A stretch of 12,950 nucleotides of DNA from Candidatus Woesearchaeota archaeon (GCA_043812195.1 JBDRML010000037.1:1-12950); one strand, 5' to 3'. Counted from the first letter of the stretch, positions 1,111 through 12,950 are shown. The notes: generated by a model not told the origin, from the letters alone. Program-made: numbers and translations.

Positions 1111-1146
1111 AAAAATGTCTTATTTCTTGGCTGGAGGCAAACTATT
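1111..1146. repeat. 36-bp perfect direct repeat, copy 1 (AAAAATGTCTTATTTCTTGGCTGGAGGCAAACTATT)
   Basis: Identical 36/36 to 1841-1876. It lies 2 nt past the stop of the 1149-1472 gene and upstream of dys. Confidence 0.95.
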
Positions 1147-1840: not shown

Positions 1841-1876
1841 AAAAATGTCTTATTTCTTGGCTGGAGGCAAACTATT
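1841..1876. repeat. 36-bp perfect direct repeat, copy 2
   Basis: Identical to 1111-1146. It encodes the last 8 codons plus stop (NSLPPAKK*) of the TrmB-type gene. Confidence 0.95.
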
Positions 1877-2659
1877 CCAAGATGTCTCAAACATTTTCCC
1901 TAAAGTTTGTGCGAAATAAGGTGTATTAACCCATACTCCTACATCATAAGTTGGATGAACATCTTTATCGTCCATCATCATGAACAATACTTCTTTGCCA
2001 TCAACTATGCAGAATCTAGTGTTCATATCATTTAGATTTTTAACTTCTGCTATTTTTGATATATCTTTTATGATATGTTCTGATTCTTTATCGAATGGAG
2101 CTGCTATCCTAATTTTGACACCTTTTTTAGACATTTTCTGTAGTGTTGGAGCTAAGGCTTCAAATTTTCTTAGGATTCCTTTTGATGTTGTAGCTAGAAC
2201 TACAGATTCATTTGCTTTTTTAATCATGTATTCTAAATGTGTGTAAATATTATGTCTTCCTTTTATTGCTCCAGATAAATCAGTTGGTTCTATAAATTCA
2301 ATACCTTGTTTGTGAAGAGTATTAAGTTCATTTATGATATCTCCTGTTGAGAGGTCTTTTAATTTTGTGATGTTTTTTTCAGCATCTTCTTTTATTGACC
2401 TTTTAATTCTTGAAACAACTTCTTTAGGTTCTACTGCTAGGTATTTTATTGGCTTACCTAATTTCATTACTACAAAACCTTTTTTTTCCAAAGTTTCTAA
2501 AACATCATATGCTCTTGATCTTGGAACGTTTCCAATGTCTGAAAGTTCTCCTGCTGTTGATGTTCCTCTTGATAATAGAGCTGTCCAAATTCTAACTTCA
2601 TATAAATTTAAGTTAAAAATTTGCCTTAATTTATTTAAAAATTCTTCTTTTACAATCAT
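1850..2659 (-). CDS. TrmB-family transcriptional regulator (wHTH plus C-terminal TrmB-type domain)
   Basis: LYEVRIWTALLSRGTSTAGELSDIGNVPRSRAYDVLETLEKKGFV is a typical TrmB N-terminal wHTH. I prefer the ATG at 2659 (MIVKEEFLNKL) because GGAGG lies 7 nt upstream. The track start at 2722 is a GTG. Confidence 0.85.
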   Translation of the reverse strand: MIVKEEFLNKLRQIFNLNLYEVRIWTALLSRGTSTAGELSDIGNVPRSRAYDVLETLEKKGFVVMKLGKPIKYLAVEPKEVVSRIKRSIKEDAEKNITKLKDLSTGDIINELNTLHKQGIEFIEPTDLSGAIKGRHNIYTHLEYMIKKANESVVLATTSKGILRKFEALAPTLQKMSKKGVKIRIAAPFDKESEHIIKDISKIAEVKNLNDMNTRFCIVDGKEVLFMMMDDKDVHPTYDVGVWVNTPYFAQTLGKMFETSWNSLPPAKK

Positions 2660-2783
2660 CTTTTTTCCTCCAAGAGATGCCCCCTCTTCTTTACTACCTT
2701 TTGCCTTGAATATTTTTTTCACTGCGGTAGAACATAATCTATTGTGTAATGGTAATTCACTATTATATAAAGATTATTGTGAT

Positions 2784-5205: not shown

Positions 5206-6510
5206 TTATTCTGGAACTTTGTATATTGCTGAATCTATGCACGGGCCTGCTCCAACTGAAAAGAAATTTAGAACATTTCTTGGATGAATAGTAAAATCTG
5301 GCATATCTCCCTTTAAAACATCATCTAACAAAACTGGTATAGTTGCGACTGATGAGTTTCCGCGCCATGATATATTCATTGGTGTTTTTCTTTTGATTAC
5401 CTCTTTTGGAAGACCTAATCCTTCCTCTCCAAGAATTTCTGAATCTAAATAATAATTTGCTTGGTGTGCAAAAATTAAATCTATTTGCTCTTTGGTTAAG
5501 TCAGCTCTTTCTAAGCTTTCTCTGATAATTCCGGGAACATTATTAACTGCATACCTAAATAACATATTTCCTTTCATTTTTAAAAATAGATGTTCTTTGT
5601 TGGGATAGTTAGGATTACTAGATTTTCCTAAAGTAAGATATTCCCCGAATTCTGAATCTGTTCTGCTTGCATGAGATAAAATACCTTCTTTAGTTTCTCC
5701 TTTTCTGGCTTCTACCTTTACAAATCCTCCCTTATCTGCATATATCATTCTGTCTGGATCAGCTGGGTCGCTTACATCTGATAAGGTTTCTACTGCACCA
5801 GTCCCTATTTCTTTTGCTAATCCTGCTTGAATAGTATAATGTGAGAATATTAATAATTCTAGCCACCCAGGACAGCCAGATAATAAATCAAAACAAATTA
5901 GATTTGGATTTTCAATACCTGCTTTTTTCTTTACTCTTTCAGCCATGCTCTCTCTTTCATGCACAACAATTAAATAATCAAGACCTTCTGGAATATTTCT
6001 ATCTCTCTCTGATTGAGGAATAATGTATGCTTTCTTGTCATTACTTGCAAAAACCTCTTTGGCAAAATTGTACCAATTCTTATTAGCAATTACATCATAA
6101 GCAACTGTTGGAGTAGCAGAAAGTCTATCTGCTTGCATTTCTCTGAAAACTATTTGAGAAGCAATTGATGGAAGCCAATTTATTTCAGGAGTTCCAAATT
6201 TACAATCTCCAAAATCATGTGCAATACCAAAACAATCCCATAAACTAAAATTATCACCTGAATTTATTACTGCTTCAGCTCCTAAGTCTGATGCAACCTT
6301 TCCTTCTAATTTATATTCTCTTTCTTTTATTCCAGTTCTTTTATATAATTTTTCTACTCTTTTTTCAGGAGTTTTTGGATCTAGTTTATATCCCTCTCCT
6401 GATATATTTCTAATATAAAAGATACTATCATTGAAATCCTTGTTTTTAACAATTCTTCCAGGATTAGATTTTCCTGTTGCAGTTATTATAGTATTTGTAT
6501 ACTTAGGCAT
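5206..6510 (-). CDS. FabH-like (KAS III / thiolase-superfamily) condensing enzyme with extended N-terminal half
   Basis: CFDLLSGCPGW (Cys213), FAHQAN (His349) and RGNSSVATIP (Asn385) have Cys-His and His-Asn spacings close to those of FabH. IYADKGG resembles the FGDGAGA loop. Confidence 0.8.
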   Translation of the reverse strand: MPKYTNTIITATGKSNPGRIVKNKDFNDSIFYIRNISGEGYKLDPKTPEKRVEKLYKRTGIKEREYKLEGKVASDLGAEAVINSGDNFSLWDCFGIAHDFGDCKFGTPEINWLPSIASQIVFREMQADRLSATPTVAYDVIANKNWYNFAKEVFASNDKKAYIIPQSERDRNIPEGLDYLIVVHERESMAERVKKKAGIENPNLICFDLLSGCPGWLELLIFSHYTIQAGLAKEIGTGAVETLSDVSDPADPDRMIYADKGGFVKVEARKGETKEGILSHASRTDSEFGEYLTLGKSSNPNYPNKEHLFLKMKGNMLFRYAVNNVPGIIRESLERADLTKEQIDLIFAHQANYYLDSEILGEEGLGLPKEVIKRKTPMNISWRGNSSVATIPVLLDDVLKGDMPDFTIHPRNVLNFFSVGAGPCIDSAIYKVPE

Positions 6511-6574
6511 TTAAATTGAGAGTTTTGAATAGTTTATATATTTTATCTTATCAAAAAGTTTTGTAAAAATTAAA

Positions 6575-6600
6575 GGAAAAAGAAGATCACCTCTTTTTCC
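6575..6600 (-). terminator. hairpin (9-bp stem, 8-nt loop containing GATCACC) followed on the minus strand by a T-rich tract
   Basis: 6575-6583 GGAAAAAGA pairs with 6592-6600 TCTTTTTCC. It lies downstream of ftsZ, after the first hairpin. Confidence 0.4.
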
Positions 6601-6609
6601 CAAAAAAAT

Positions 6610-6662
6610 AAGTGAATGAGCGACGGCTTTGGGGGGTTAAAGAATGTTCAACTCATTCACTT
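6610..6662 (-). terminator. ftsZ 3-prime hairpin (11-bp perfect stem, 31-nt GC-rich loop) followed by T7 on the minus strand
   Basis: 6610-6620 AAGTGAATGAG pairs with 6652-6662 CTCATTCACTT. The ftsZ stop codon (6657-6659) lies inside the stem. The minus-strand transcript continues ATTTTTTTG. Confidence 0.5.
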
Positions 6663-7736
6663 GAGCATGTCAATTCCCAGTTCTCTTTCCATTCTAACTG
6701 ATTCTTGTATTTTCTCTTTTAATCTATCTACTTTCCCTAGAACGTAAGGAGAGGTAACTCCTGTAATTATAGTCATTACACGTATTTTACCATCCATACC
6801 TGGTTCTATTCTAGCACCCCAAATAACATTTGCATCTGGGTCTAGGGATTTTGTAACCATTTCTCCTATTTTATTTATATCATCTAATAACATGTCTTCT
6901 CCACCTGTAACATGTATTAATGCGCCTGTTGCACCCTCATAATTAATTTCAAGCAATGGGTTTGTTAGAGCTCTATGAACTGCTTCTTCTACTCTTCCTG
7001 CAGTATTAGATTCTCCTATACCTATAGCAGATACGCCACCATCTGACATGATTGCTTTTACATCTGCGTAATCTAGATTAACTAAGCTTGGTACAGCAAT
7101 AATTTCAACGATTCCTTTAATCATTGTTGAAATTAACTCGTTTGCTACTGCAAATGCTTGTTTTATAGGTAAATTTCCAGCTAGATTCACTAACCTGTTA
7201 TTATCTATAACTATTACAGTGTCACAAACTTGTCTTAATTGTTGTAGGCCGAATTCAGCTTTGTCTACTCTTGCTTTTTCTATATTGAAAGGCATTGTTA
7301 CTGTTCCTATAACTATGGCTCCTTGCTCTTTAGCAATTTGAGCAACTATTGGTGCAGATCCAGTTCCTGTTCCTCCACCCATTCCTGCGCAAATAAATAC
7401 CATATCAGCTTTGCTGACAACTTCCTTTAGCTCAGAAATATTTTCTTTAGCAGAATCTCTTCCTTTGTCTAAAAATCCACCACAACCTAGACCTCTTGTT
7501 AATTCTCTTCCGATTAAGATTTTATGATCTGAAGAAGAAATATCTAAGTGTTGTTTGTCTGTGTTAACAGCAGTAATCTCTGCTCCTTTAACTCCTTTCT
7601 TGTATAACCAAGAAACCATATTATTTCCTGCACCACCCAAGCCTAGAACTTTTATTTTAGCTTGACCGATGTTTAGGTCCTCATAATTTGTGTCTTGTTC
7701 TACATTTTTCAATGCATCTTGTATGATAAATTCCAT
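6657..7736 (-). CDS. ftsZ: cell division GTPase FtsZ
   Basis: GLGGAGNN and the [10 protein letters not shown] tubulin/FtsZ signature, with length and domain order typical of FtsZ. Confidence 0.97.
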
Positions 7737-7812
7737 TTTTTTCTTAAGCCCCCTTTTGCTTTTTTATATTTTACACCACAATAATTTTTATATAGGTGCT
7801 TTATTATTATTT

Positions 7813-7847
7813 CCTCTAGAAAAAGTTACTGATCGCCAAATTAGAGG
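7813..7847. other. hairpin presenting GATCGCCAAA in its loop (copy 1)
   Basis: CCTCTA at 7813-7818 pairs with TAGAGG at 7842-7847. The loop contains GATCGCCAAA at 7831-7840. It is followed by CTTTTTC, and TAAGACCAATT lies at 7869-7879. Confidence 0.4.
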
Positions 7848-7898
7848 CTTTTTCAAGATAAAACTAACTAAGACCAATTGAGAATACATGTACGTTTA

Positions 7899-7926
7899 TC
7901 ATTTCAGATCGCCAAAAATGAAATGA
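7899..7926. other. hairpin presenting GATCGCCAAA in its loop (copy 2)
   Basis: TCATTTCA at 7899-7906 pairs with TGAAATGA at 7919-7926 (8/8). The loop at 7907-7918 is GATCGCCAAAAA. TAAGACCTATT follows at 7932-7942. Confidence 0.45.
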
Positions 7927-8007
7927 AGTGTTAAGACCTATTTCTATTTTATTATAGTATCATATATAAAGATTTTTGAACTAGAAAGTATATTTTTAAG
8001 GATATAA

Positions 8008-8388
8008 TCAACTTTGATATTCCACTAAAACCCTTGTTTTACTTGATTTTTCTTTATTATAATCAAAAGGATATTTATGAATGCGATATAAATTATTTTT
8101 AAAATAGATATTTGTTGATTCTAAATTAGATAATGTTGGTATATCAAAATCGCAGTTTTCTAAAACTATTTCTGTTAATGGCTTTGATGGGTAAAAATCA
8201 CTTATTATGCTTTTTCCCAATCTATGAATTTGAACTGAAAATGTAATATCTTTTGGAGATACACTAATCTGGCTTCCTTTTTCAGCAATGTCTGGTAAAT
8301 CTACTGATGAACAAATACCAAATTTTTCATTTAATTTTAACTGGCCTCTGTATAAGAGATCTCGTAGTGTGATTCTATTTTTTCTCAT
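8008..8388 (-). CDS. hypothetical protein (126 aa)
   Basis: ATG ORF with TTTATAAA (minus strand) about 30 nt upstream in 8389-8435. No family was recognised. Confidence 0.5.
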   Translation of the reverse strand: MRKNRITLRDLLYRGQLKLNEKFGICSSVDLPDIAEKGSQISVSPKDITFSVQIHRLGKSIISDFYPSKPLTEIVLENCDFDIPTLSNLESTNIYFKNNLYRIHKYPFDYNKEKSSKTRVLVEYQS

Positions 8389-8435
8389 GATTTTGAGCCG
8401 TTTAATTGAGTTTATAAAGAATTCTATTTTAATAA

Positions 8436-8708
8436 TTATAAGCCAAAAGACTCTTCAAAGATTTTCATTTCTCTTATTTTTTGAATAAATTGATGTCCTT
8501 TTTCTGTTATTGCTATGAAGTCTTTGTCTTTTACTTTTGTTCTTTGTATGAAATTTTTTTCTATTAAACCTTGTAAATAATTATTCATCTGAGTATGTGA
8601 TAAGTTTGCTTTATACATTAGATGGGTTGGTTTAATTTCTCCTTTCTTCTCTTGAATTGAGACTAGAATATCGTTAATTATGTCTAGTCTGCTTCTTTTT
8701 CTTTCCAT
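8436..8708 (-). CDS. small archaeal winged-helix regulator (COG3432/HTH_45-like, from memory)
   Basis: [11 protein letters not shown]...[30 protein letters not shown]...ITEKGHQFI matches the pattern of small archaeal wHTH regulators. Confidence 0.7.
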
Positions 8709-9396
8709 GGTATAAAACTCTTATTAAGACTTGCAATAATAAAATATAACCTACTAATTGAACTACTTCAGCTATAACATAAACTAAAGGATTTAATATT
8801 ATGAACATAAAGAAAGCCTGACTAATTGCTATGATGCTAAACCCGTATGCTAAGTATTTTGTGTTTTTGTTTCCAGTTTGTGAGTAGATATTAAAGTATC
8901 TAGATGCTATGAATACAAGGAAGATTATTGATGTTATGTGGAATATGTAATATAATGTTGAACTGTATAAAGCTGATACTATTGATAATACTATAATGAA
9001 GTATATTGTTAAAAATACAGTAGGTATTTTCTGGCCTCTTTTAATACTATATAATACATAGAGGCCTGCTAGATTAGCTAGAACAAATATTAGGAAACTT
9101 GAAATTGCTAGTATGTTGAAACTTCTTACAACTTCTAGTGTTTGTATAACTGCACCTGTTGGAGTGTTAGCTTTTATTGATTCATAATATACTGTAACAT
9201 TTGTGACCATTTTGAATAAGAATGATGCTGCGATTAAATAGAATGCAAATCCTAATTTCATATAGTTTTTATTATTGTTTAATTTGTAGTATCTAGTAGC
9301 TACTGTTGCTATGCTAAAAAGTACGAGAATTGTGATTAGGTCAATGAAAATTGATACTAAATAGAACCATTTAGGACCGAATGCTATCTCTATCAT
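8674..9396 (-). CDS. polytopic integral membrane protein (about 7 hydrophobic segments), unknown function
   Basis: 240-aa ORF made of repeated long hydrophobic stretches with a Lys-rich tail. Its 3-prime end overlaps the downstream wHTH gene by 35 nt. Confidence 0.65.
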
Positions 9397-9409
9397 TAGT
9401 TAGGGGAGA

Positions 9410-9631
9410 GTGGTATCGTTTAAAAATCTTATGATTTGGAATTTAGTAAGTATTTTTCATAGGGTATTTATAAATGGCTTTTTAAGATTTAGTAAAGAGG
9501 TGATGGCAATATCAAAAAATAAAATAAGATCGATATTAAGAAGGGTCATTCCTTTAGAAGATTATGAGATTGAGTATTTTAAACATTTATTTTATAAGAG
9601 TGTTATAAGTGAGCGCTGGACTCGGAAGTGA
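9410..9631 (+). CDS. doubtful small ORF (track start is GTG; alternative ATG at 9503 gives 42 aa)
   Basis: TTTATAAA at 9467-9474 would place a transcript start near the ATG at 9503. The 3-prime end (9600-9631) resembles a cassette junction module rather than typical coding sequence. Confidence 0.2.
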   Translation: MVSFKNLMIWNLVSIFHRVFINGFLRFSKEVMAISKNKIRSILRRVIPLEDYEIEYFKHLFYKSVISERWTRK

Positions 9632-9742
9632 TTATTTTAAAATTTTATTAGTTTCTAAGTACCAAAGATATATTTTATTTTGCTGTTCAAAACCTTTAAA
9701 AAGGTCTATTTTCTAGGTTTTAAGAAGTTTATGTTATGAAAA

Positions 9743-10156
9743 ATGGTAAATGGAATTGATACAACTGCTAGTGAAGATATAAGTGTTGGTGGAAAGGATA
9801 TCACTTGTCCTAGATGTAAAGAATCTACTAATATGTTGTGGAGTGTTGATATTGAATATACTTGTAGCACGAAAAGAAGAAGAGTTTGTAAGAAGTGTAG
9901 AGATGAATTATTAGAAGAGATAGAAGAGGTTTTAGAAGTTGGTGGTGATCTTAAATCAGAAATTAAGGATCAAAAAGTTATAGAGGATATTACTTGTCCT
10001 GGTTGTGGAGAAGGAGCAACTTGTCCTTGTGTTATGCATAGTATTTCTGTGACTAAGGATTTTGAGGGCAAAAAGATGATGAAAGATTCTGATAAGTTTG
10101 TAATGTTTAAGAAAGAGGATTTTGATAAGTTTAAGGCTGATTTGTTTGGTGGTTAA
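9743..10156 (+). CDS. Cys-rich zinc-ribbon-type protein (137 aa) with duplicated DITCPxC motif
   Basis: CPRC...CKKC and CPGCGEGATCPC motifs. The stop codon lies inside a TTGGTGGTTAA motif that resembles the junction-module head. Confidence 0.7.
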   Translation: MVNGIDTTASEDISVGGKDITCPRCKESTNMLWSVDIEYTCSTKRRRVCKKCRDELLEEIEEVLEVGGDLKSEIKDQKVIEDITCPGCGEGATCPCVMHSISVTKDFEGKKMMKDSDKFVMFKKEDFDKFKADLFGG

Positions 10157-10200
10157 TCACTGTTAAATCCGCCGAGGGCGTAGCCCGAGGAACGGAGAAG
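10157..10200 (+). repeat. junction module M1 (GTTAAAT..CCGAG, mini-hairpin GGGC-GTA-GCCC at 10176-10186, tail GAACGGAGAAG at 10190-10200)
   Basis: GC-rich island in AT-rich DNA. The 11-nt tail is identical to 10564-10574. The GTTAA..CCGAG..CGTAG core aligns with M2. Confidence 0.75.
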
Positions 10201-10213
10201 TTTGAGTTTTGCC

Positions 10214-10228
10214 GATAGAATTATATAC
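10214..10228 (+). promoter_or_regulatory. BRE/TATA-like promoter of the cassette A gene
   Basis: GATAGAA followed by TTATATAC at 10221-10228. The TATA starts 29 nt upstream of the ATG at 10250, consistent with a leaderless mRNA. Confidence 0.5.
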
Positions 10229-10249
10229 TTGAATTAATTAACTTAATTC

Positions 10250-10429
10250 ATGGTAATTACACGACCTAGAATTTGGTATGTTTGTAATAAATGTGGAGAA
10301 TGGTTTTGTTATCCTAAAAACCCTCCAAAAAAATGTCCTGATTGTAAAAAAGGAGATTTAACCAAAACATGCGCTTTCTGTGGTGAAAAATTCGAGGAGT
10401 GTAAATGTTCCAAAAGAAGAATTGGATAA
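10250..10429 (+). CDS. 59-aa zinc-ribbon mini-protein (MVITRPRIWYVCNKCGEWFCYPKNPPKKCPDCKKGDLTKTCAFCGEKFEECKCSKRRIG)
   Basis: Translated by hand; it falls below the track length cutoff. Contains CxxC at C12/C15, C29/C32 and C41/C44, plus CKC. A further CxxCG..F..CKC unit continues in another frame to 10478. Confidence 0.55.
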   Translation: MVITRPRIWYVCNKCGEWFCYPKNPPKKCPDCKKGDLTKTCAFCGEKFEECKCSKRRIG

Positions 10430-10491
10430 GAAATGTCATAACTGTGGATTCTTTAAAGCAAATTGTAAATGTGAATAAGGCAAAACTCAAA

Positions 10492-10574
10492 TTGAATATA
10501 ATTGGTGTTAATTGCCCCGAGCCGTAGGCGTTAGCACTCTGTCAAGGTCGTAGTGAAAAGCGTGAACGGAGAAG
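10492..10574 (+). repeat. junction module M2 (head TTGAATATAATTGGTGTTA, CCCCGA + GCC-GTA-GGC at 10521-10529, tail GAACGGAGAAG at 10564-10574)
   Basis: The head is 17/19 identical to the M3 head. The core aligns with M1. It is GC-rich relative to its surroundings. Confidence 0.8.
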
Positions 10575-10982
10575 TTCCCACGGGCATCAAACATCTTTTC
10601 TATAGAAAGATATTTATATAATAGGATATTATTGTATTTTCATGTGGCATGGCATGTTTCATACAATCGATGAAGAGAAAGATTGGCACAGCACGTTTGA
10701 TCCGTGCACTGAAGATGAGCTTATGTGGTTGGATCGTGTTGCTCAATTATTGGGTATTGAGGAAACTCCTTCTTATAAATCAAATATACCTATTGATTGC
10801 CCTGTAACTGGTACAGTGATTTCTGCAATTGACAATTGTTTTGATCTTGCACAAGACCGTTTAGGATTTAAGAATTCGTGCCCATATGCTAAACGGGGTC
10901 TTTATGAACGCAACACCAAAGACTTGATAGGTGTTGTGTGTAGCTATAAAGGTAGAACTTGTGAAGATAATGCCCGTGGGAA
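10575..10982 (+). mobile_element. cassette B: single gene enclosed by a perfect 13-bp inverted repeat
   Basis: 10575-10587 TTCCCACGGGCAT is the exact reverse complement of 10970-10982 ATGCCCGTGGGAA. The right arm encodes the last codons of the cargo ORF. Confidence 0.5.
10602..10620 (+). promoter_or_regulatory. BRE/TATA-like promoter of the cassette B gene
   Basis: ATAGAAAGATA followed by TTTATATA at 10613-10620. The TATA starts 29 nt upstream of the ATG at 10642. An imperfect palindrome ATCTTTTCTATAGAAAGAT lies at 10592-10610. Confidence 0.5.
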
Positions 10983-10986
10983 TTGA
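10642..10986 (+). CDS. hypothetical Cys/Trp-containing protein (114 aa), no family recognised
   Basis: ATG ORF with leaderless TATA spacing. It is visibly more GC-rich than the core genes. Confidence 0.65.
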   Translation: MWHGMFHTIDEEKDWHSTFDPCTEDELMWLDRVAQLLGIEETPSYKSNIPIDCPVTGTVISAIDNCFDLAQDRLGFKNSCPYAKRGLYERNTKDLIGVVCSYKGRTCEDNARGN

Positions 10987-11045
10987 ACTTAATTGGTGTT
11001 ATACGAGGCGAGGACAAAGTCCGAGAGTGCAACGTCCCTTTAGCG
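10983..11045 (+). repeat. junction module M3 (head TTGAACTTAATTGGTGTTA, CGA + GGAC-AAA-GTCC at 11012-11022)
   Basis: The head matches M2. The CGA plus triloop hairpin sits at the equivalent position. The stem sequence differs from M1 and M2 but remains complementary. Confidence 0.75.
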
Positions 11046-11069
11046 TTTGAGAGTGTGCCGTTCATTATT

Positions 11070-12008
11070 TTAAAAAGTGGGGCGATTATACTTTACTACT
11101 TTGGCTATCATTTGTTTTAATTCTTTAGAATTAGGCCAATCTGGCAGGATATCTAAATCATGTTTAATGGAGTAAAAATCTAACCTCTTATCTAAATTTT
11201 GAAAATTAAATAGTTCTGGATAAAATTCCTGAAACCAATCTAAAAGATGAGCGTAATCCTCTTTTTTAGCGAATTTTTCAAATTCTTCGGACATATATTT
11301 TTTTGGATGCTCAACCATTTTCTTTATTACACTTAGAGTAAAATCAATAGATGACAATTCTGTTCTTTCAAAATCCAAAATTCCTACAATCTTTGTATCT
11401 TGAATCAGTATGTTATCAAAATGCACGTCCCAGTAAACTAAGGCTATTTTTTGCTCTTTTAGAACATTATGGTTGTTGTTTATAAATTTCTTGATACTTT
11501 GTATAAACTCAAATGATAGCAGTTTCTTTTGCTCAATCTTTTTCAAGGAATTTTGGATTTGGTTGAGTATCTTATCATGCCAATTATCCGAAGAATTTAC
11601 TTTAAATTTTTCTAGAAATTTATCAGATGGCGATTTGTTGATGATTATTAAAACTTTGCAGAGTTGCTTAATAATGTTTTTTCTCTTGTCATTGCTCAAC
11701 AAATGCCATTTTGAATAAAGAGTGTCACCCTTGATTTTTGGATAAATCATGAATAATTTGCCATAAGTCTTTTTGGAATTATCAAAAACTTTGATTTTAG
11801 GAGATGGAATTTTATTCTTGAAAAAATTATAAAAAAATACTTCTCTTTCAAATTTTTCTTCATTATCCTCATCTTCACAAACTTTGAGAATAAATTTATC
11901 GTTAATTGAATAAACTTTGTTTGTGAAGCCTATTTCAATTTTTTTAATATATTTTACTTCTCCTAAATTATTCTGAAGAAAAATTTGTTTTATGATTTTT
12001 TCATCCAT
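11070..12008 (-). CDS. APH/choline-kinase-family phosphotransferase (aminoglycoside phosphotransferase-like fold)
   Basis: GFTNKVY loop, ILKV lysine, VHFDNILI (HxDxxxxN catalytic loop) and ILDFE (metal-binding Asp). Family recognition is from memory. Confidence 0.85.
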   Translation of the reverse strand: MDEKIIKQIFLQNNLGEVKYIKKIEIGFTNKVYSINDKFILKVCEDEDNEEKFEREVFFYNFFKNKIPSPKIKVFDNSKKTYGKLFMIYPKIKGDTLYSKWHLLSNDKRKNIIKQLCKVLIIINKSPSDKFLEKFKVNSSDNWHDKILNQIQNSLKKIEQKKLLSFEFIQSIKKFINNNHNVLKEQKIALVYWDVHFDNILIQDTKIVGILDFERTELSSIDFTLSVIKKMVEHPKKYMSEEFEKFAKKEDYAHLLDWFQEFYPELFNFQNLDKRLDFYSIKHDLDILPDWPNSKELKQMIAKVVKYNRPTF

Positions 12009-12030
12009 AATGATTGATAAGATGTTAGGT

Positions 12031-12038
12031 TATATAAA
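12031..12038 (-). promoter_or_regulatory. TATA box of the cassette C gene
   Basis: The minus strand reads TTTATATA starting 30 nt upstream of the ATG at 12008, the same spacing seen in cassettes A and B. Confidence 0.5.
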
Positions 12039-12079
12039 TTTAGCCCCACTTTTTTGTATCGTTGAGGCACACTCTCAAA

Positions 12080-12120
12080 TGTCGTATAACGGTTGTTAGT
12101 TTCTCCAAGCTTTGCGAGGA
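12080..12120 (+). repeat. junction module M4a (diverged head TGTCGTATAACGGTTGTTA, tail GCGAGGA)
   Basis: It follows right arm C in the same way that M2 and M3 follow their arms. The head matches the M2 head at 11/19, including TATAA and TGTTA. Confidence 0.55.
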
Positions 12121-12159
12121 TTGATTTTTAGTGTAACGATGCCGAAGGCAAAAAATCAA
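12121..12159. repeat. cargo-less arm pair (empty hairpin) related to the cassette A arms
   Basis: TTGATTTTT at 12121-12129 pairs with AAAAATCAA at 12151-12159. TGCC at 12140-12143 pairs with GGCA at 12147-12150 around a GAA triloop. A 10-nt bulge AGTGTAACGA sits between the two stems. GGCAAAAAATCAAA resembles right arm A, GGCAAAACTCAAA. Confidence 0.6.
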
Positions 12160-12161
12160 AG

Positions 12162-12176
12162 TTTGAGAGCCCGAGC
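12162..12176 (+). repeat. candidate left arm of cassette D (TTTGAGAGCCCGAGC); partner expected beyond window end
   Basis: It shares GTTTGAGAG with the verified left arm of cassette C and sits in the equivalent position. No partner can be seen in the window. Confidence 0.35.
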
Positions 12177-12189
12177 TTCTTATAAGTAC

Positions 12190-12202
12190 TCTGCGAAGCA
12201 GA
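12190..12202. other. GAA-triloop mini-hairpin TCTGC-GAA-GCAGA
   Basis: 5-bp perfect stem, GAA loop, C-G closing pair. It is the same type as the hairpins in the junction modules. Confidence 0.5.
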
Positions 12203-12256
12203 CAATATTTTAGGGGTGCCCGCCGTTTTAGTTCTTAATCTGAAAGTAGTAACACA

Positions 12257-12273
12257 ATAGAAAGATTTATAAA
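12257..12273 (+). promoter_or_regulatory. BRE/TATA-like promoter of the last gene
   Basis: ATAGAAAGA followed by TTTATAAA at 12266-12273, 43 nt upstream of the ATG at 12309. It is nearly identical to the cassette B promoter. Confidence 0.45.
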
Positions 12274-12308
12274 GTTTAACCTACAACTAAATATATTGGG
12301 TAATCAAA

Positions 12309-12950
12309 ATGTTTTACGATCCTTTACAAAGAAGATTGAAACAGATGGAGGGTGAGAATCCTTCGCTAAATAAGCATCCGCAAGGATTTTGGAAAGGTTT
12401 CAGAGAGAGATCTTATTTCTCGAAAAGATTTTTATCTGGGATAGTTGAGACCATTCCACAATTTACTCATCGTTATGGTTCTAATGCTGATCGAATTTTT
12501 GATTATAAAAAAGGATTTGAAAATGTAGGTTATCCTGAACAAACAGTGAATTGGTTAGAAGAAGCATTAAAAGATATTATTGTATCTGGTGAGATAAGAA
12601 GCAGAGTAGAAAAAGACTTAGAAATAGCAAGAAAACATGCGTATAATTCTGGAGTGAAATTAAGGGAAGTGGATGTTAACGGCATACTTGGTTTGCATGA
12701 AACAGACATGAGAACTTCCGGGTATAAGTACGTTCCAGGATGGCTGAACAAAGCAATTGCATACATTGAACTAGCAGAAGAGAAAAGGGGCGATGCAGAA
12801 TTGTATTCATTAGCAAGAGAATATTTAGAGGAGTCATTGATTGTTTTGAAAAAAGTAGAAGAAGAACAAAGAGAACTTGAAGGAGTTATTCAAACAATGT
12901 TAGACTCTTGTCAACCAAGAAAAAAAGATTTGACTTTTTCTCAAGCGTAA
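12309..12950 (+). CDS. hypothetical protein (213 aa), no family recognised; the stop codon is the last triplet of the window
   Basis: Complete ATG..TAA ORF. It is visibly more GC-rich than the core genes, and its C-terminal part looks helical and charged. Confidence 0.65.
   Translation: MFYDPLQRRLKQMEGENPSLNKHPQGFWKGFRERSYFSKRFLSGIVETIPQFTHRYGSNADRIFDYKKGFENVGYPEQTVNWLEEALKDIIVSGEIRSRVEKDLEIARKHAYNSGVKLREVDVNGILGLHETDMRTSGYKYVPGWLNKAIAYIELAEEKRGDAELYSLAREYLEESLIVLKKVEEEQRELEGVIQTMLDSCQPRKKDLTFSQA

What the first reader, a model, noticed from the sequence alone, without database searches (positions are those of the whole stretch)
10157..12950. Tandem array of self-promoted single-gene cassettes, each enclosed by its own perfect 13-14 bp inverted repeat
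The following pairings are directly visible.
- Cassette A: 10201-10213 TTTGAGTTTTGCC pairs 13/13 with 10479-10491 GGCAAAACTCAAA.
- Cassette B: 10575-10587 TTCCCACGGGCAT pairs 13/13 with 10970-10982 ATGCCCGTGGGAA.
- Cassette C: 11046-11059 TTTGAGAGTGTGCC pairs 14/14 with 12066-12079 GGCACACTCTCAAA.

Each pair brackets exactly one ORF together with its own TATA box, which starts 29, 29 and 30 nt upstream of the ATG. The arm sequences differ between cassettes, but their position relative to the conserved flanks is constant: ...GAAG then the left arm, and the right arm then TTGAA.... So the pairing is conserved while the sequence is not.

The cargo is heterogeneous: a zinc-ribbon mini-protein, an unknown Cys-rich protein, an APH-like kinase and another unknown protein. 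One cassette is in the opposite orientation.

Inference: this is a gene-cassette platform whose logic recalls integrons or mobile insertion cassettes but fits neither. The cassettes carry their own promoters. The arms lie on the cassette side of the conserved GTT. No canonical R or L boxes are present. No transposase or integrase is in view. I do not know of a described system with this architecture.
Basis: partly seen in the sequence, partly recalled or inferred. Interest (0 to 1): 0.9.

Follow-up and report, generated by a model that had tools for sequence, protein, structure and literature searches.

The report
Archaeal gene cassettes bounded by dif-like sites
This stretch of a tiny DPANN archaeon's genome is a swappable array of single-gene cassettes, each bounded by a 28-bp site resembling the one the chromosome-resolving enzyme XerA uses, so it works like an integron built from different parts.

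Summary
They are not the recombination sites.

**Core sites.** The "conserved flanks" hold a 28-bp 11-6-11 core, ATTGAAnnTAA-TnnnTG-TTAnnTnCnCC. It matches the Pyrococcus abyssi XerA dif site at 19/28 positions. The window has four copies in direct orientation: 10146, 10491, 10982 and 12079.

**Where cassettes exchange.**
- A 99.2%-identical strain (L200) loses homology exactly at the spacer/right-arm border of the third site and carries different cassettes after it.
- Two other strain comparisons also break at the spacer.
- The kinase cassette recurs as a unit, with the same arms, in other arrays.

**Distribution.** The same architecture fills arrays in Woesearchaeota and Pacearchaeota metagenome-assembled genomes (MAGs). 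Three of them lie next to a XerA-type recombinase gene.

**What the arms are.** They are cassette-specific outer extensions of the site.
- The right arm ends exactly 16 nt before the cassette end in 22 of 45 ORF-bearing cassettes.
- The two half-sites of one cassette covary.
- Joined in silico, the cassette ends fold as one strand into a four-way junction rich in strand-specific C-GNA-G mini-hairpins.

**Verdict.** This is an integron-like platform using Xer-type sites. It is not an attC integron. I found no description of it in the literature I searched.

The parts
10146..10173 (+). Core site S1: TTGGTGGTTAA-TCACTG-TTAAATCCGCC. The left arm is degenerate and overlaps the stop codon of ORF 9743-10156. 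This is probably the left end of the array.
   Evidence: Regex and nhmmer hit. Identical in the 99.2%-identical strain L200.
10163..10507 (+). Cassette A. Its parts are: right half-site plus GC-rich module 10163-10200; left arm 10201-10213; TATA 10221; ORF A 10250-10429 (Zn-ribbon-like, frameshifted); right arm 10479-10491; left half-site plus spacer 10491-10507.
   Evidence: The in-silico circular junction folds with z = -4.7.
10491..10518 (+). Core site S2: ATTGAATATAA-TTGGTG-TTAATTGCCCC.
   Evidence: Best HMM hit in the window. It differs at 6 of 28 positions from L200 although the flanks are about 99% identical.
10508..10998 (+). Cassette B. Its parts are: module 10508-10574; left arm 10575-10587; TATA 10613; ORF B 10642-10986 (Cys-rich, no family); right arm 10970-10982, which is coding.
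   Evidence: Junction fold z = -3.2.
10982..11009 (+). Core site S3: ATTGAACTTAA-TTGGTG-TTATACGAGGC. Homology with strain L200 ends here, after ...TTGGTGTTAT.
10999..12095 (+). Cassette C. Its parts are: module 10999-11045; left arm 11046-11059; inner repeat 11072-11083 / 12043-12054; APH-family kinase ORF 11070-12008 on the minus strand with TATA at 12031-12038; right arm 12066-12079; left half-site TGTCGTATAA, complementary to the cassette's own start TTATACGA.
   Evidence: The whole unit recurs at about 81% nucleotide identity (window 11022-12090), with the same arms, in L336-L339 and L341-L343 in other contexts. Junction fold z = -7.3.
12079..12106 (+). Core site S4: ATGTCGTATAA-CGGTTG-TTAGTTTCTCC.
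12096..12950 (+). Cassette D, cut by the window end. Its parts are: a conserved module with hairpin GATTGATTTTT...AAAAATCAAAG (12119-12161); a putative left arm TTTGAGAGCCCGAGC starting at 12162; TATA 12266; ORF D 12309-12950 (no family).
   Evidence: The same module is followed by other arms and ORFs in L063 and L062, and the module also matches in L158 and L145. Coordinates.

Best explanation
Window 10146-12950 is the start of an array of mobile single-gene cassettes in a Woesearchaeota-type (DPANN) archaeon.

**Shown**
- Cassettes are delimited by directly repeated 28-bp Xer/dif-like core sites: an 11-bp left arm ATTGAAnnTAA, a 6-bp spacer TnnnTG, and an 11-bp right arm TTAnn....
- A cassette runs from a right arm to the next spacer.
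- Cassettes are gained, lost and replaced at the spacer between near-identical strains.
- One cassette type recurs in different arrays.

**Inferred with good support**
The enzyme is an archaeal XerA-type tyrosine recombinase acting in trans. In three related arrays it is encoded nearby, about 0.2 kb beyond the last site in one and 1-2 kb from the nearest detected site in the other two. Excision gives a circle whose junction is left arm-spacer-right arm, made from the cassette's own two ends.

**Inferred with moderate support**
- The 13-14 bp arms, the two half-sites and the purine-rich GC module are one cassette-specific structured element read as a single strand.
- When the cassette ends are joined, or when single-stranded DNA folds across the ORF, they form a four-way junction. 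It has an arm stem (P1), a half-site stem (H1) and two small hairpins (H2, H3).
- H1 rebuilds a double-stranded recombinase-binding arm next to a single-stranded spacer. The logic parallels folded integron attC sites and the folded CTX-phage attP.

**How the cargo is expressed**
Each cargo gene is expressed from its own TATA promoter, and it can sit in either orientation.
For: **The site**
- The consensus matches P. abyssi dif ATTGGATATAA-TCGGCC-TTATATCTAAA (PMC2958812) at 19/28 positions, and at 10/11 in the left arm (consensus).
- The window has four co-oriented sites and no others.

**Family**
Arrays of 3-10 such sites occur in Woesearchaeota/Pacearchaeota MAGs and metagenome contigs.

**Breakpoints**
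- Window versus L200 is 99.18% identical over 4755 nt and ends at ...TTGGTG|TTAT.
- L130 versus L158 is 99.98% identical and ends one base into the spacer.
- L197 versus L130 switches at the left arm.
- L341 versus L342 ends one base into the spacer.
- ORF-less units of 105-160 nt repeat exactly from core to core.

**Cassette as a unit**
The kinase cassette is homologous only over 11022-12090. All 28 arm positions are identical to L341, against 81% identity overall.

**Recombinase**
- The genes in L128 and L188 score 232 and 236 bits on NCBIfam XerA_Arch (cut-off 220). They fall below the integron-integrase cut-off.
- Their best solved-structure match is 4A8E, XerA.
- A third such gene is in L341.

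**Structure**
- Own-cassette half-sites pair in 87.1% of cells against 72.5% when shuffled. The covariation score is 0.365 against 0.126, reached by 0/500 shuffles.
- The same arms read in array context are no better than shuffled. Wilcoxon p = 7e-6.
- The right arm ends sharply at offset 16.
- All 19 junctions folded gave the arm stem, and most gave the four-way fold. z ranges from -3.2 to -9.6.
- RNAalifold finds 16 of 22 pairs with compensatory changes.
- C-GNA-G motifs number 73 on the top strand and 4 on the bottom in the module zone. Such DNA mini-hairpins are exceptionally stable (PMC13037366, PMC3201870).

**Cargo**
ParE, PIN, HicA, HNH, NUDIX and methyltransferases. Orientation is 25 forward and 20 reverse.
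Against: - No recombinase gene lies in the window, and no biochemical evidence links XerA to these sites.
- Most arrays show no xerA within the DNA held.
- The window's first site has a poor left arm.
- The modules of window cassettes A-C fold weakly on their own (z from -0.6 to +1.0). The four-way junction is therefore clear in the family but degenerate here.
- About 40% of cassettes lack a perfect arm of at least 7 nt at the fixed offset.
- L200's B arms carry one uncompensated mismatch, and L336's arms carry two.
- The P1 covariation is partly by construction, because the arms were chosen for complementarity.
- Single-strand folding cannot be told apart in silico from cruciform extrusion or RNA folding.
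- The same module is joined to different arms and ORFs in different genomes. This hints at a second level of exchange that the model does not explain.
Confidence: 0.62

Rival explanations
1. Double-strand-only Xer recombination. The array is an accumulation of small Xer-exploiting elements (IMEX-like) at or near the chromosomal dif site. The arms, modules and half-site complementarity are historical leftovers of palindromic sites and have no present function.
For: - The core sites are valid double-stranded 11-6-11 sites.
- Single sites occur next to ftsZ and housekeeping genes in other genomes (L011, L015, L089, L108).
- GC skew changes sign near 8-9 kb of the window.
- Some cassettes lack arms.
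Against: - The arms are perfectly conserved in the kinase cassette, 28/28 and inner repeat 24/24, while the cassette as a whole is 81% identical.
- Compensatory changes occur in the arms and in H2 between related cassettes.
- Non-consensus but complementary half-sites, such as ACGCCTAA/TTAGGCGT, covary only in own-cassette context.
- The 73:4 strand bias of C-GNA-G motifs has no meaning for a purely double-stranded site.
Confidence: 0.2
2. The 13-14 bp arms are themselves the recombination junctions, and arm-ORF-arm units move in and out at GAAG| and |TTGAA of a fixed platform.
For: - The same conserved module (GATTGATTTTT...AAAAATCAAAG) is followed by different arms and ORFs in the window, L063 and L062.
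- A shared 'shell' (arms TAARTTTTTGGGC plus GAGGGCTCG) holds different inner ORFs, each with its own nested repeat, in L062 and L067.
Against: - All four nucleotide-resolution strain breakpoints fall at the core spacer, and none falls at an arm.
- Repeated ORF-less units are bounded by cores.
- The arms have no shared sequence that a recombinase could recognise.
- The kinase cassette's homology includes the module and both half-sites.
Confidence: 0.07
3. RNA-level element. The arms, half-sites and modules fold in a read-through transcript, for example for processing, stabilisation or circularisation of cassette mRNAs.
For: - There is strand-specific structure with GNRA/GNA-type loops.
- The fold is equally possible for RNA (one search used RNA parameters).
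Against: - The left arm lies upstream of each cassette's own TATA box, so it is absent from the cassette's own mRNA.
- Cargo orientation relative to the module is nearly random, 25:20.
- No Rfam family or tRNA matched.
- The perfect helices lack bulge-helix-bulge features.
Confidence: 0.06
4. An ordinary archaeal integron or a cluster of attC sites without an integrase (CALIN), as reported by Ghaly et al. 2022.
For: - Integrons and CALINs were reported in Nanoarchaeota, including Woesearchaeales and Pacearchaeales (PMC9668308).
- The cargo is rich in toxin-antitoxin genes, as in chromosomal integrons.
- The crossover lies next to a G|TT.
Against: - There is no RYYYAAC...GTTRRRY pair on either strand of 9701-12950.
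- Inter-ORF segments have z of about 0 in array context.
- The published archaeal attCs are canonical 58-90 nt hairpins unlike these sites, and they fold far more strongly per nucleotide.
- The adjacent recombinases pass the XerA threshold, not the integron-integrase threshold.
Confidence: 0.03

Closest known systems
Archaeal XerA/dif chromosome-dimer resolution (Pyrococcus abyssi; Cortez et al. 2010, PMC2958812)
   Same: - The site is 28 bp with 11-6-11 geometry and an inner ATAA-N6-TTAT palindrome.
- 19/28 positions are identical to Pab dif, and 10/11 in the left arm.
- XerA-family recombinase genes lie near related arrays.
- Cortez et al. also note inverted repeats flanking dif, and that XerA binds stem-loops.
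   Different: - dif is a single copy per chromosome and resolves dimers. Here there are 4-10 direct copies within a few kb that bound exchangeable genes.
- The right arms are degenerate.
- The arms of one cassette covary.
Acinetobacter pdif (dif) modules (PMC6449649; Blackwell and Hall 2017)
   Same: - Discrete one- or few-gene modules are bounded by 28-bp Xer sites.
- No recombinase lies in the module.
- Cargo includes toxin-antitoxin pairs and adaptive genes.
- One arm is conserved and the other is variable.
- The same module is found in different contexts.
   Different: - pdif modules are bacterial, plasmid-borne and use XerC/XerD.
- Their flanking sites are inversely oriented (C/D and D/C).
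- They have no cassette-specific closing stems or structured module.
- Here the system is archaeal and the sites are direct repeats in the window.
Integrons, including archaeal integrons and CALINs (Ghaly et al. 2022, PMC9668308)
   Same: - There is an array of small mobile cassettes with strain-level turnover, ORF-less cassettes and cargo rich in toxin-antitoxin genes.
- The recombinase belongs to the Xer-related tyrosine recombinases.
- Each cassette's first bases are complementary to its last, and the site is cassette-specific in sequence but conserved in structure.
- Single-strand folding is likely.
   Different: - There is no attC hairpin at the cassette's 3' end.
- The crossover lies in the centre of a palindromic site, so its halves end up at opposite ends of the cassette.
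- The recombinase type is XerA, not IntI.
- Cassettes have their own promoters and random orientation.
IMEX elements such as CTX phage, which use host XerCD and a folded single-stranded attP
   Same: - A housekeeping-type Xer recombinase is exploited in trans.
- Arrays are separated by dif-like sites with one degenerate arm.
- A folded single strand supplies the recombination substrate.
   Different: - IMEX elements are phages or islands of several kb that integrate at the one chromosomal dif.
- Here the units are single genes of 0.1-2.6 kb.
- No viral relatives were found in IMG/VR: 2 weak single-site hits among 119 loci.

Membership tests
Integron / CALIN | An attC site at each cassette's 3' end: an imperfect hairpin of about 57-141 nt with R'' (RYYYAAC) and R' (GTTRRRY) boxes. 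| tested here: not met
   - There are no R''...R' candidates on either strand of 9701-12950.
- Array-context junctions fold no better than shuffles.
- The published archaeal attCs look different.
Integron / CALIN | An IntI integrase carrying the integron-specific extra domain. | tested here: not met
   - No recombinase lies in the window.
- The recombinases beside related arrays score 225 and 220 bits on TIGR02249 (cut-off 265), in two separate stretches.
- The same proteins score 232 and 236 bits on XerA_Arch (cut-off 220).
Integron / CALIN | Mostly promoterless, co-oriented cassettes expressed from a common Pc promoter. | tested here: not met
   - Each cassette has its own TATA box 29-43 nt before its ATG.
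- Cargo orientation is 25 forward and 20 reverse.
Xer/dif site | A 28-bp site of two 11-bp inverted arms around a 6-bp spacer, with the conserved inner ATAA/TTAT. | tested here: met
   -.
- TAA and TTA are invariant in the aligned sites.
- 19/28 positions are identical to Pab dif.
Xer/dif site | A cognate Xer-family tyrosine recombinase. | tested here: inconclusive
   - XerA-type genes lie next to arrays in L128, L188 and L341.
- None lies in the window, and activity was not tested.
Xer/dif site | A single copy per replicon in the terminus region, serving dimer resolution. | tested here: not met
   - There are four sites in 2 kb of the window and up to 10 in 4 kb elsewhere.
- Terminus location is not testable on contigs.
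pdif modules | [quoted passage not shown] | tested here: not met
   All four window sites, and the sites of the arrays in L062, L067, L112, L128 and L154, are co-oriented.
IMEX | An element without its own recombinase, integrated at the host's chromosomal dif by the host Xer. | tested here: inconclusive
   - The cassettes carry no recombinase.
- Whether the array sits at the chromosomal dif cannot be decided without a complete genome.
MITE / IS element | Terminal inverted repeats shared between copies, plus direct target-site duplications. | tested here: not met
   - The arms differ between cassettes, and no direct duplications flank them.
- The arms are not scattered. They sit at a fixed offset from the core.

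The most novel reading that the evidence does not exclude
DPANN archaea possess a second, independently evolved 'integron'.

- A XerA-type recombinase shuffles self-promoted single-gene cassettes.
- The recombination substrate is a folded single strand.
- The two ends of each cassette pair through cassette-specific arms, covarying half-sites and C-GNA-G mini-hairpins into a four-way junction.
- That junction rebuilds the recombinase-binding arms next to an unpaired spacer.

This would be convergent with integron attC folding but topologically inverted, because the crossover lies at the centre of the palindrome rather than at its base.
Probability: 0.4. Interest if true: 0.92.

Novelty: new variant of a known kind. 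Interest (0 to 1): 0.8.

Why it matters
- It would give DPANN archaea, which have tiny genomes and depend on hosts, a dedicated gene-shuffling platform. That would explain part of their strain-level variability.
- It would show that the housekeeping Xer/dif machinery was turned into a cassette system in Archaea, in parallel with IntI/attC integrons and Acinetobacter dif modules in Bacteria.
- The cargo includes a kinase gene shared at 60-75% identity with CPR bacteria and Firmicutes, so the platform may take part in cross-domain transfer.
- The covarying cassette ends offer a directly testable model for structure-specific recognition by XerA.
- Integron-finding tools built on attC models would miss these arrays.

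Tried and rejected
- **Rfam and ARAGORN.** Rfam at E up to 1 on the whole window gave no hit. ARAGORN found no tRNA or tmRNA. I therefore dropped my first ideas: an ncRNA gene split by ORF-bearing introns, split tRNAs, bulge-helix-bulge processing stems, C/D-box sRNAs and ribozymes.
- **CRISPR.** I considered CRISPR-like repeats because of GTT...GAAG and ATTGAAAC. I rejected this because there is no repeat-spacer periodicity and the units contain genes.
- **attC reading of the modules.** Array-context folds were no better than shuffles, and there is no R''/R' pair.
- **Source contig.** Exact-sequence look-ups of window proteins ORF C and ORF D, and of P0001, found nothing. I could not extend the contig. 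P0001 shows it is only about 13.2 kb.
- **Genome-collection pattern scan.** Most matches were chance hits in bacteria. Only about 9 loci were real.
- **Viral contigs.** 119 loci gave only 2 weak single sites, so there is no sign of viral carriage.
- **Recombinase screen.** My first regular-expression screen was too strict and found nothing. A relaxed one found the genes.
- **L108/L169.** These carry only a decayed C-terminal relic of xerA.
- **Circular contigs.** Only L162 has a terminal overlap, and it is ambiguous.
- **Literature.** Searches for Xer/dif cassette arrays in archaea or DPANN found no description.

Full report
**1. The observation**

The window is AT-rich (about 30% G+C). It encodes archaeal housekeeping proteins such as FtsZ, an ATP-dependent DNA ligase, a TrmB-like regulator and a deoxyhypusine-synthase-like protein, judged by reading the translations. 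An identical copy of ORF C is annotated in NCBI as coming from a Candidatus Woesearchaeota MAG on a 13.2-kb contig.

The three arm pairs are exact reverse complements at the stated coordinates and extend no further. TATA boxes start 29, 29 and 30 nt before the start codons of ORFs A, B and C, and 43 nt before that of ORF D.

Perfect inverted repeats of at least 13 nt within 1.5 kb number 7 in the window. Markov simulations give 1.38 ± 1.19. ORF C matches the APH kinase family in Pfam. ORFs A, B and D match nothing.

**2. What the 'conserved flanks' are**

Reading the junctions and a related Pacearchaeota array (L067) shows that TTGAAnnTAA-TTGGTG-TTA is the centre of a 28-bp site. It has 11-bp inverted arms around a 6-bp spacer.

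Across the sites aligned the consensus is ATTGAATATAA-TTGGTG-TTATATTCCCC, with TAA and TTA invariant. The experimentally used P. abyssi XerA dif site is ATTGGATATAA-TCGGCC-TTATATCTAAA (PMC2958812). That is 19/28 identical overall and 10/11 in the left arm.

The window holds four such sites, all on the + strand, at 10146, 10491, 10982 and 12079. An HMM of the site finds no others in the window.

Rfam and ARAGORN find nothing.

**3. The family**

Pattern scans of the genome and metagenome collections found the same sites in Woesearchaeota/Pacearchaeota MAGs and environmental contigs. Most of the matches in bacterial contigs did not pass the site HMM and are treated as chance. Sites are often in co-oriented arrays:

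| Locus | Sites |
|---|---|
| L062 | 8 in 3 kb |
| L067 / L173 | 10 |
| L128 | 8 |
| L154 | 8 |
| L112 | 6 |
| L130 / L158 | 6 |

The 62 unique inter-site units range from 105 to 2645 nt. ORF-less units of 105-160 nt recur within arrays.

Cargo genes include ParE, PIN, HicA, HNH, NUDIX, Ham1 and methyltransferases. They lie in either orientation, 25 forward and 20 reverse.

IMG/VR viral contigs gave only chance-level hits.

**4. Where cassettes are exchanged**

- L200 is 99.18% identical to window 6248-11002. Homology stops exactly after ...AATTGAACTTAATTGGTG|TTAT in the third site. Two unrelated cassettes follow, one of them with 14/15-matching arms that abut the next core.
- L130 and L158 are 99.98% identical and diverge one base into a spacer. 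L197 and L130 switch at the left arm.
- L341 and L342 are 100% identical and diverge one base into the spacer after the kinase cassette's left half-site.
- The kinase cassette of the window is homologous to L336-L339 and L341-L343 only over 11022-12090. That span is essentially the cassette predicted from the cores (10999-12095), and its neighbours differ.
- Between the window and L200, the second core differs at 6 of 28 positions although the flanks are about 99% identical.

Cassette boundaries are therefore the core spacers, not the arms.

**5. The recombinase**

No recombinase is in the window. In related loci a tyrosine recombinase gene lies near the array:

- L128 6859-7710, about 200 bp after a terminal half-degenerate site.
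- L188 3828-4646.
- L341 4800-5621, next to fibrillarin.

The first two pass NCBIfam XerA_Arch (232 and 236 bits, cut-off 220). They fail the integron-integrase model (225 and 220 bits, cut-off 265, in two stretches). Their best solved-structure match is P. abyssi XerA, 4A8E. Most arrays show no xerA in the DNA held, so action in trans is assumed.

**6. What the arms are**

- *Position.* In 22 of 45 unique ORF-sized cassettes, a perfect repeat of at least 9 nt has its right copy ending exactly 16 nt before the cassette end, abutting TTGAAnnTAA. At offsets 0-15 the count is 0-2. The left copy lies 23-140 nt after the crossover, behind a purine-rich GC module that nearly always ends in AG.
- *Half-site covariation.* The two half-sites at the ends of one cassette are complementary. 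87.1% of cells pair against 72.5% when shuffled. 69 cells carry double changes against 26. The covariation score is 0.365 against 0.126, reached by 0/500 shuffles. The two arms of one site as it stands in the array are no better than shuffled. A paired test gives p = 7e-6.
- *Non-consensus pairs.* Pairs such as ACGCCTAA/TTAGGCGT argue for pairing rather than for protein sequence recognition alone.
- *Conservation of the arms.* The arms and the inner repeat of the kinase cassette are identical between the window and L341 (52 positions), although the cassette as a whole is 81% identical. Related cassettes show compensatory changes in the arms:
  - TAAGTTTTTGGGC/GCCCAAAAACTTA versus TAAATTTTTGGGC/GCCCAAAAATTTA
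  - GCAACCGAA/TTCGGTTGC versus GCCACCGAA/TTCGGTGGC

  

**7. The fold**

I joined each cassette's end to its own start: right arm + left half-site + spacer + right half-site + module + left arm.

- In all 19 cases folded as single-stranded DNA, the arms form an outer stem (P1). In most of them the half-sites also form a hairpin with the spacer in its loop (H1), and the whole fold is a four-way junction with two further small hairpins (H2, H3) followed by AG.
- z-scores are -4.7, -3.2 and -7.3 for window cassettes A, B and C, and -9.6 and -8.2 for two compact relatives. The array-context junctions of the window have z of about 0.
- RNAalifold on nine compact junctions recovers P1, H1 and part of H2, with compensatory changes at 16 of 22 pairs. 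P1 is partly by construction there.
- The module remainder folds into two hairpins in 18 of 30 cases. The modules of window cassettes A-C are weak examples. The module of cassette D is a canonical one.
- The module zone carries 73 C-GNA-G motifs on the top strand against 4 on the bottom. GCGNAGC occurs 12 times against 1. These are the exceptionally stable DNA mini-hairpins (PMC13037366, PMC3201870).

This strand bias means that one strand is read as a single strand.

In the array the same pairings are long-range. P1 and H1 close off each cassette, and successive cassettes are linked by single-stranded 6-nt spacers flanked by double-stranded arms. That this is the substrate is my inference, not a result.

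**8. Comparison with known systems**

- *Integron.* It is not one in the defining sense. There is no attC, the published archaeal attCs are canonical hairpins, the recombinase is XerA-type, and the cassettes are self-promoted.
- *Xer/dif.* It shares the site type with archaeal Xer/dif, but not the single-copy dimer-resolution role.
- *Acinetobacter dif modules.* It resembles them (PMC6449649) but is archaeal, has direct-repeat sites and adds the structured cassette ends.
- *IMEX and folded CTX attP.* It resembles them in exploiting a Xer enzyme.
- *Literature.* A review of archaeal tyrosine recombinases describes dif as single-copy and mentions no such arrays (PMC8371274). Targeted searches found no description.

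**9. Verdict**

- The interpretation as a novel cassette platform is broadly right, but its mechanics were misassigned.
- Best-supported model: a XerA/dif-type, integron-like cassette array.
- Likely but unproven: a single-strand folding component that explains the arms.
- Unexplained: the same module occurs with different arms and ORFs, nested arm pairs occur around some cargo, and the L336/L341 relatives have an ~85-nt palindromic insert in place of the spacer.

Noticed in passing
window 1111-1146 and 1841-1876: There is a perfect 36-nt direct repeat. The second copy is the 3' end of the TrmB-like ORF 1850-2722 (-). The 694 nt between the copies carry two small ORFs (1149-1472 -, 1575-1829 +) with no Pfam match. 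This looks like a small insertion with a 36-bp target duplication.
   Followed up: partly
window 10412 (ORF A, 10250-10429): A one-base indel relative to L200 truncates the Zn-ribbon mini-protein from 75 to 59 aa. The window copy is probably a frameshifted allele.
   Followed up: yes
window 10491-10518 (core site S2): Six of 28 positions differ from the 99.2%-identical strain L200: the arm NN positions, the spacer TTGGTG versus TCAGTG, and the right arm. Elsewhere the difference is about 0.1-1.7 per 100 nt. The core is a hotspot of change.
   Followed up: partly
window 10970-10986: The right arm of cassette B encodes the last residues of ORF B. The stop codon TGA is supplied by the ATTGAA of the core's left arm.
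   Followed up: yes
window 11070-12008 (kinase ORF C): There are hundreds of homologues at 60-87% identity, including annotated CPR bacteria (Peregrinibacteria, Nomurabacteria) and Caldanaerobius. This suggests wide, possibly cross-domain transfer. The closest homologue's locus (L340, 87%) lacks the arms.
   Followed up: partly
L336 ~5110-5030 and L341 ~1010-905 (minus strand): In these relatives the 6-nt spacer is replaced by an ~85-nt palindromic insert, CATCAGGGATAA...TTATCCC(C/T)TG, between a normal left arm and right arm. L341 also seems to hold sites in both orientations.
   Followed up: no
L162 (whole 3073-nt contig): A 107-nt terminal direct overlap begins inside a core site. This could be a circular 2966-nt molecule of five cassettes, or an assembly-graph cycle through a repeated cassette.
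   Followed up: partly
window ~8000-9500: GC skew changes sign from negative to positive where gene orientation also switches, about 1-2 kb before the array. A related single site lies about 770 bp upstream of ftsZ in L011. A link to a replication landmark could not be tested.
   Followed up: no
L108 4221-4379 (also L169): A 52-aa decayed C-terminal relic of a XerA-like gene lies about 3 kb downstream of a lone core site.
   Followed up: yes
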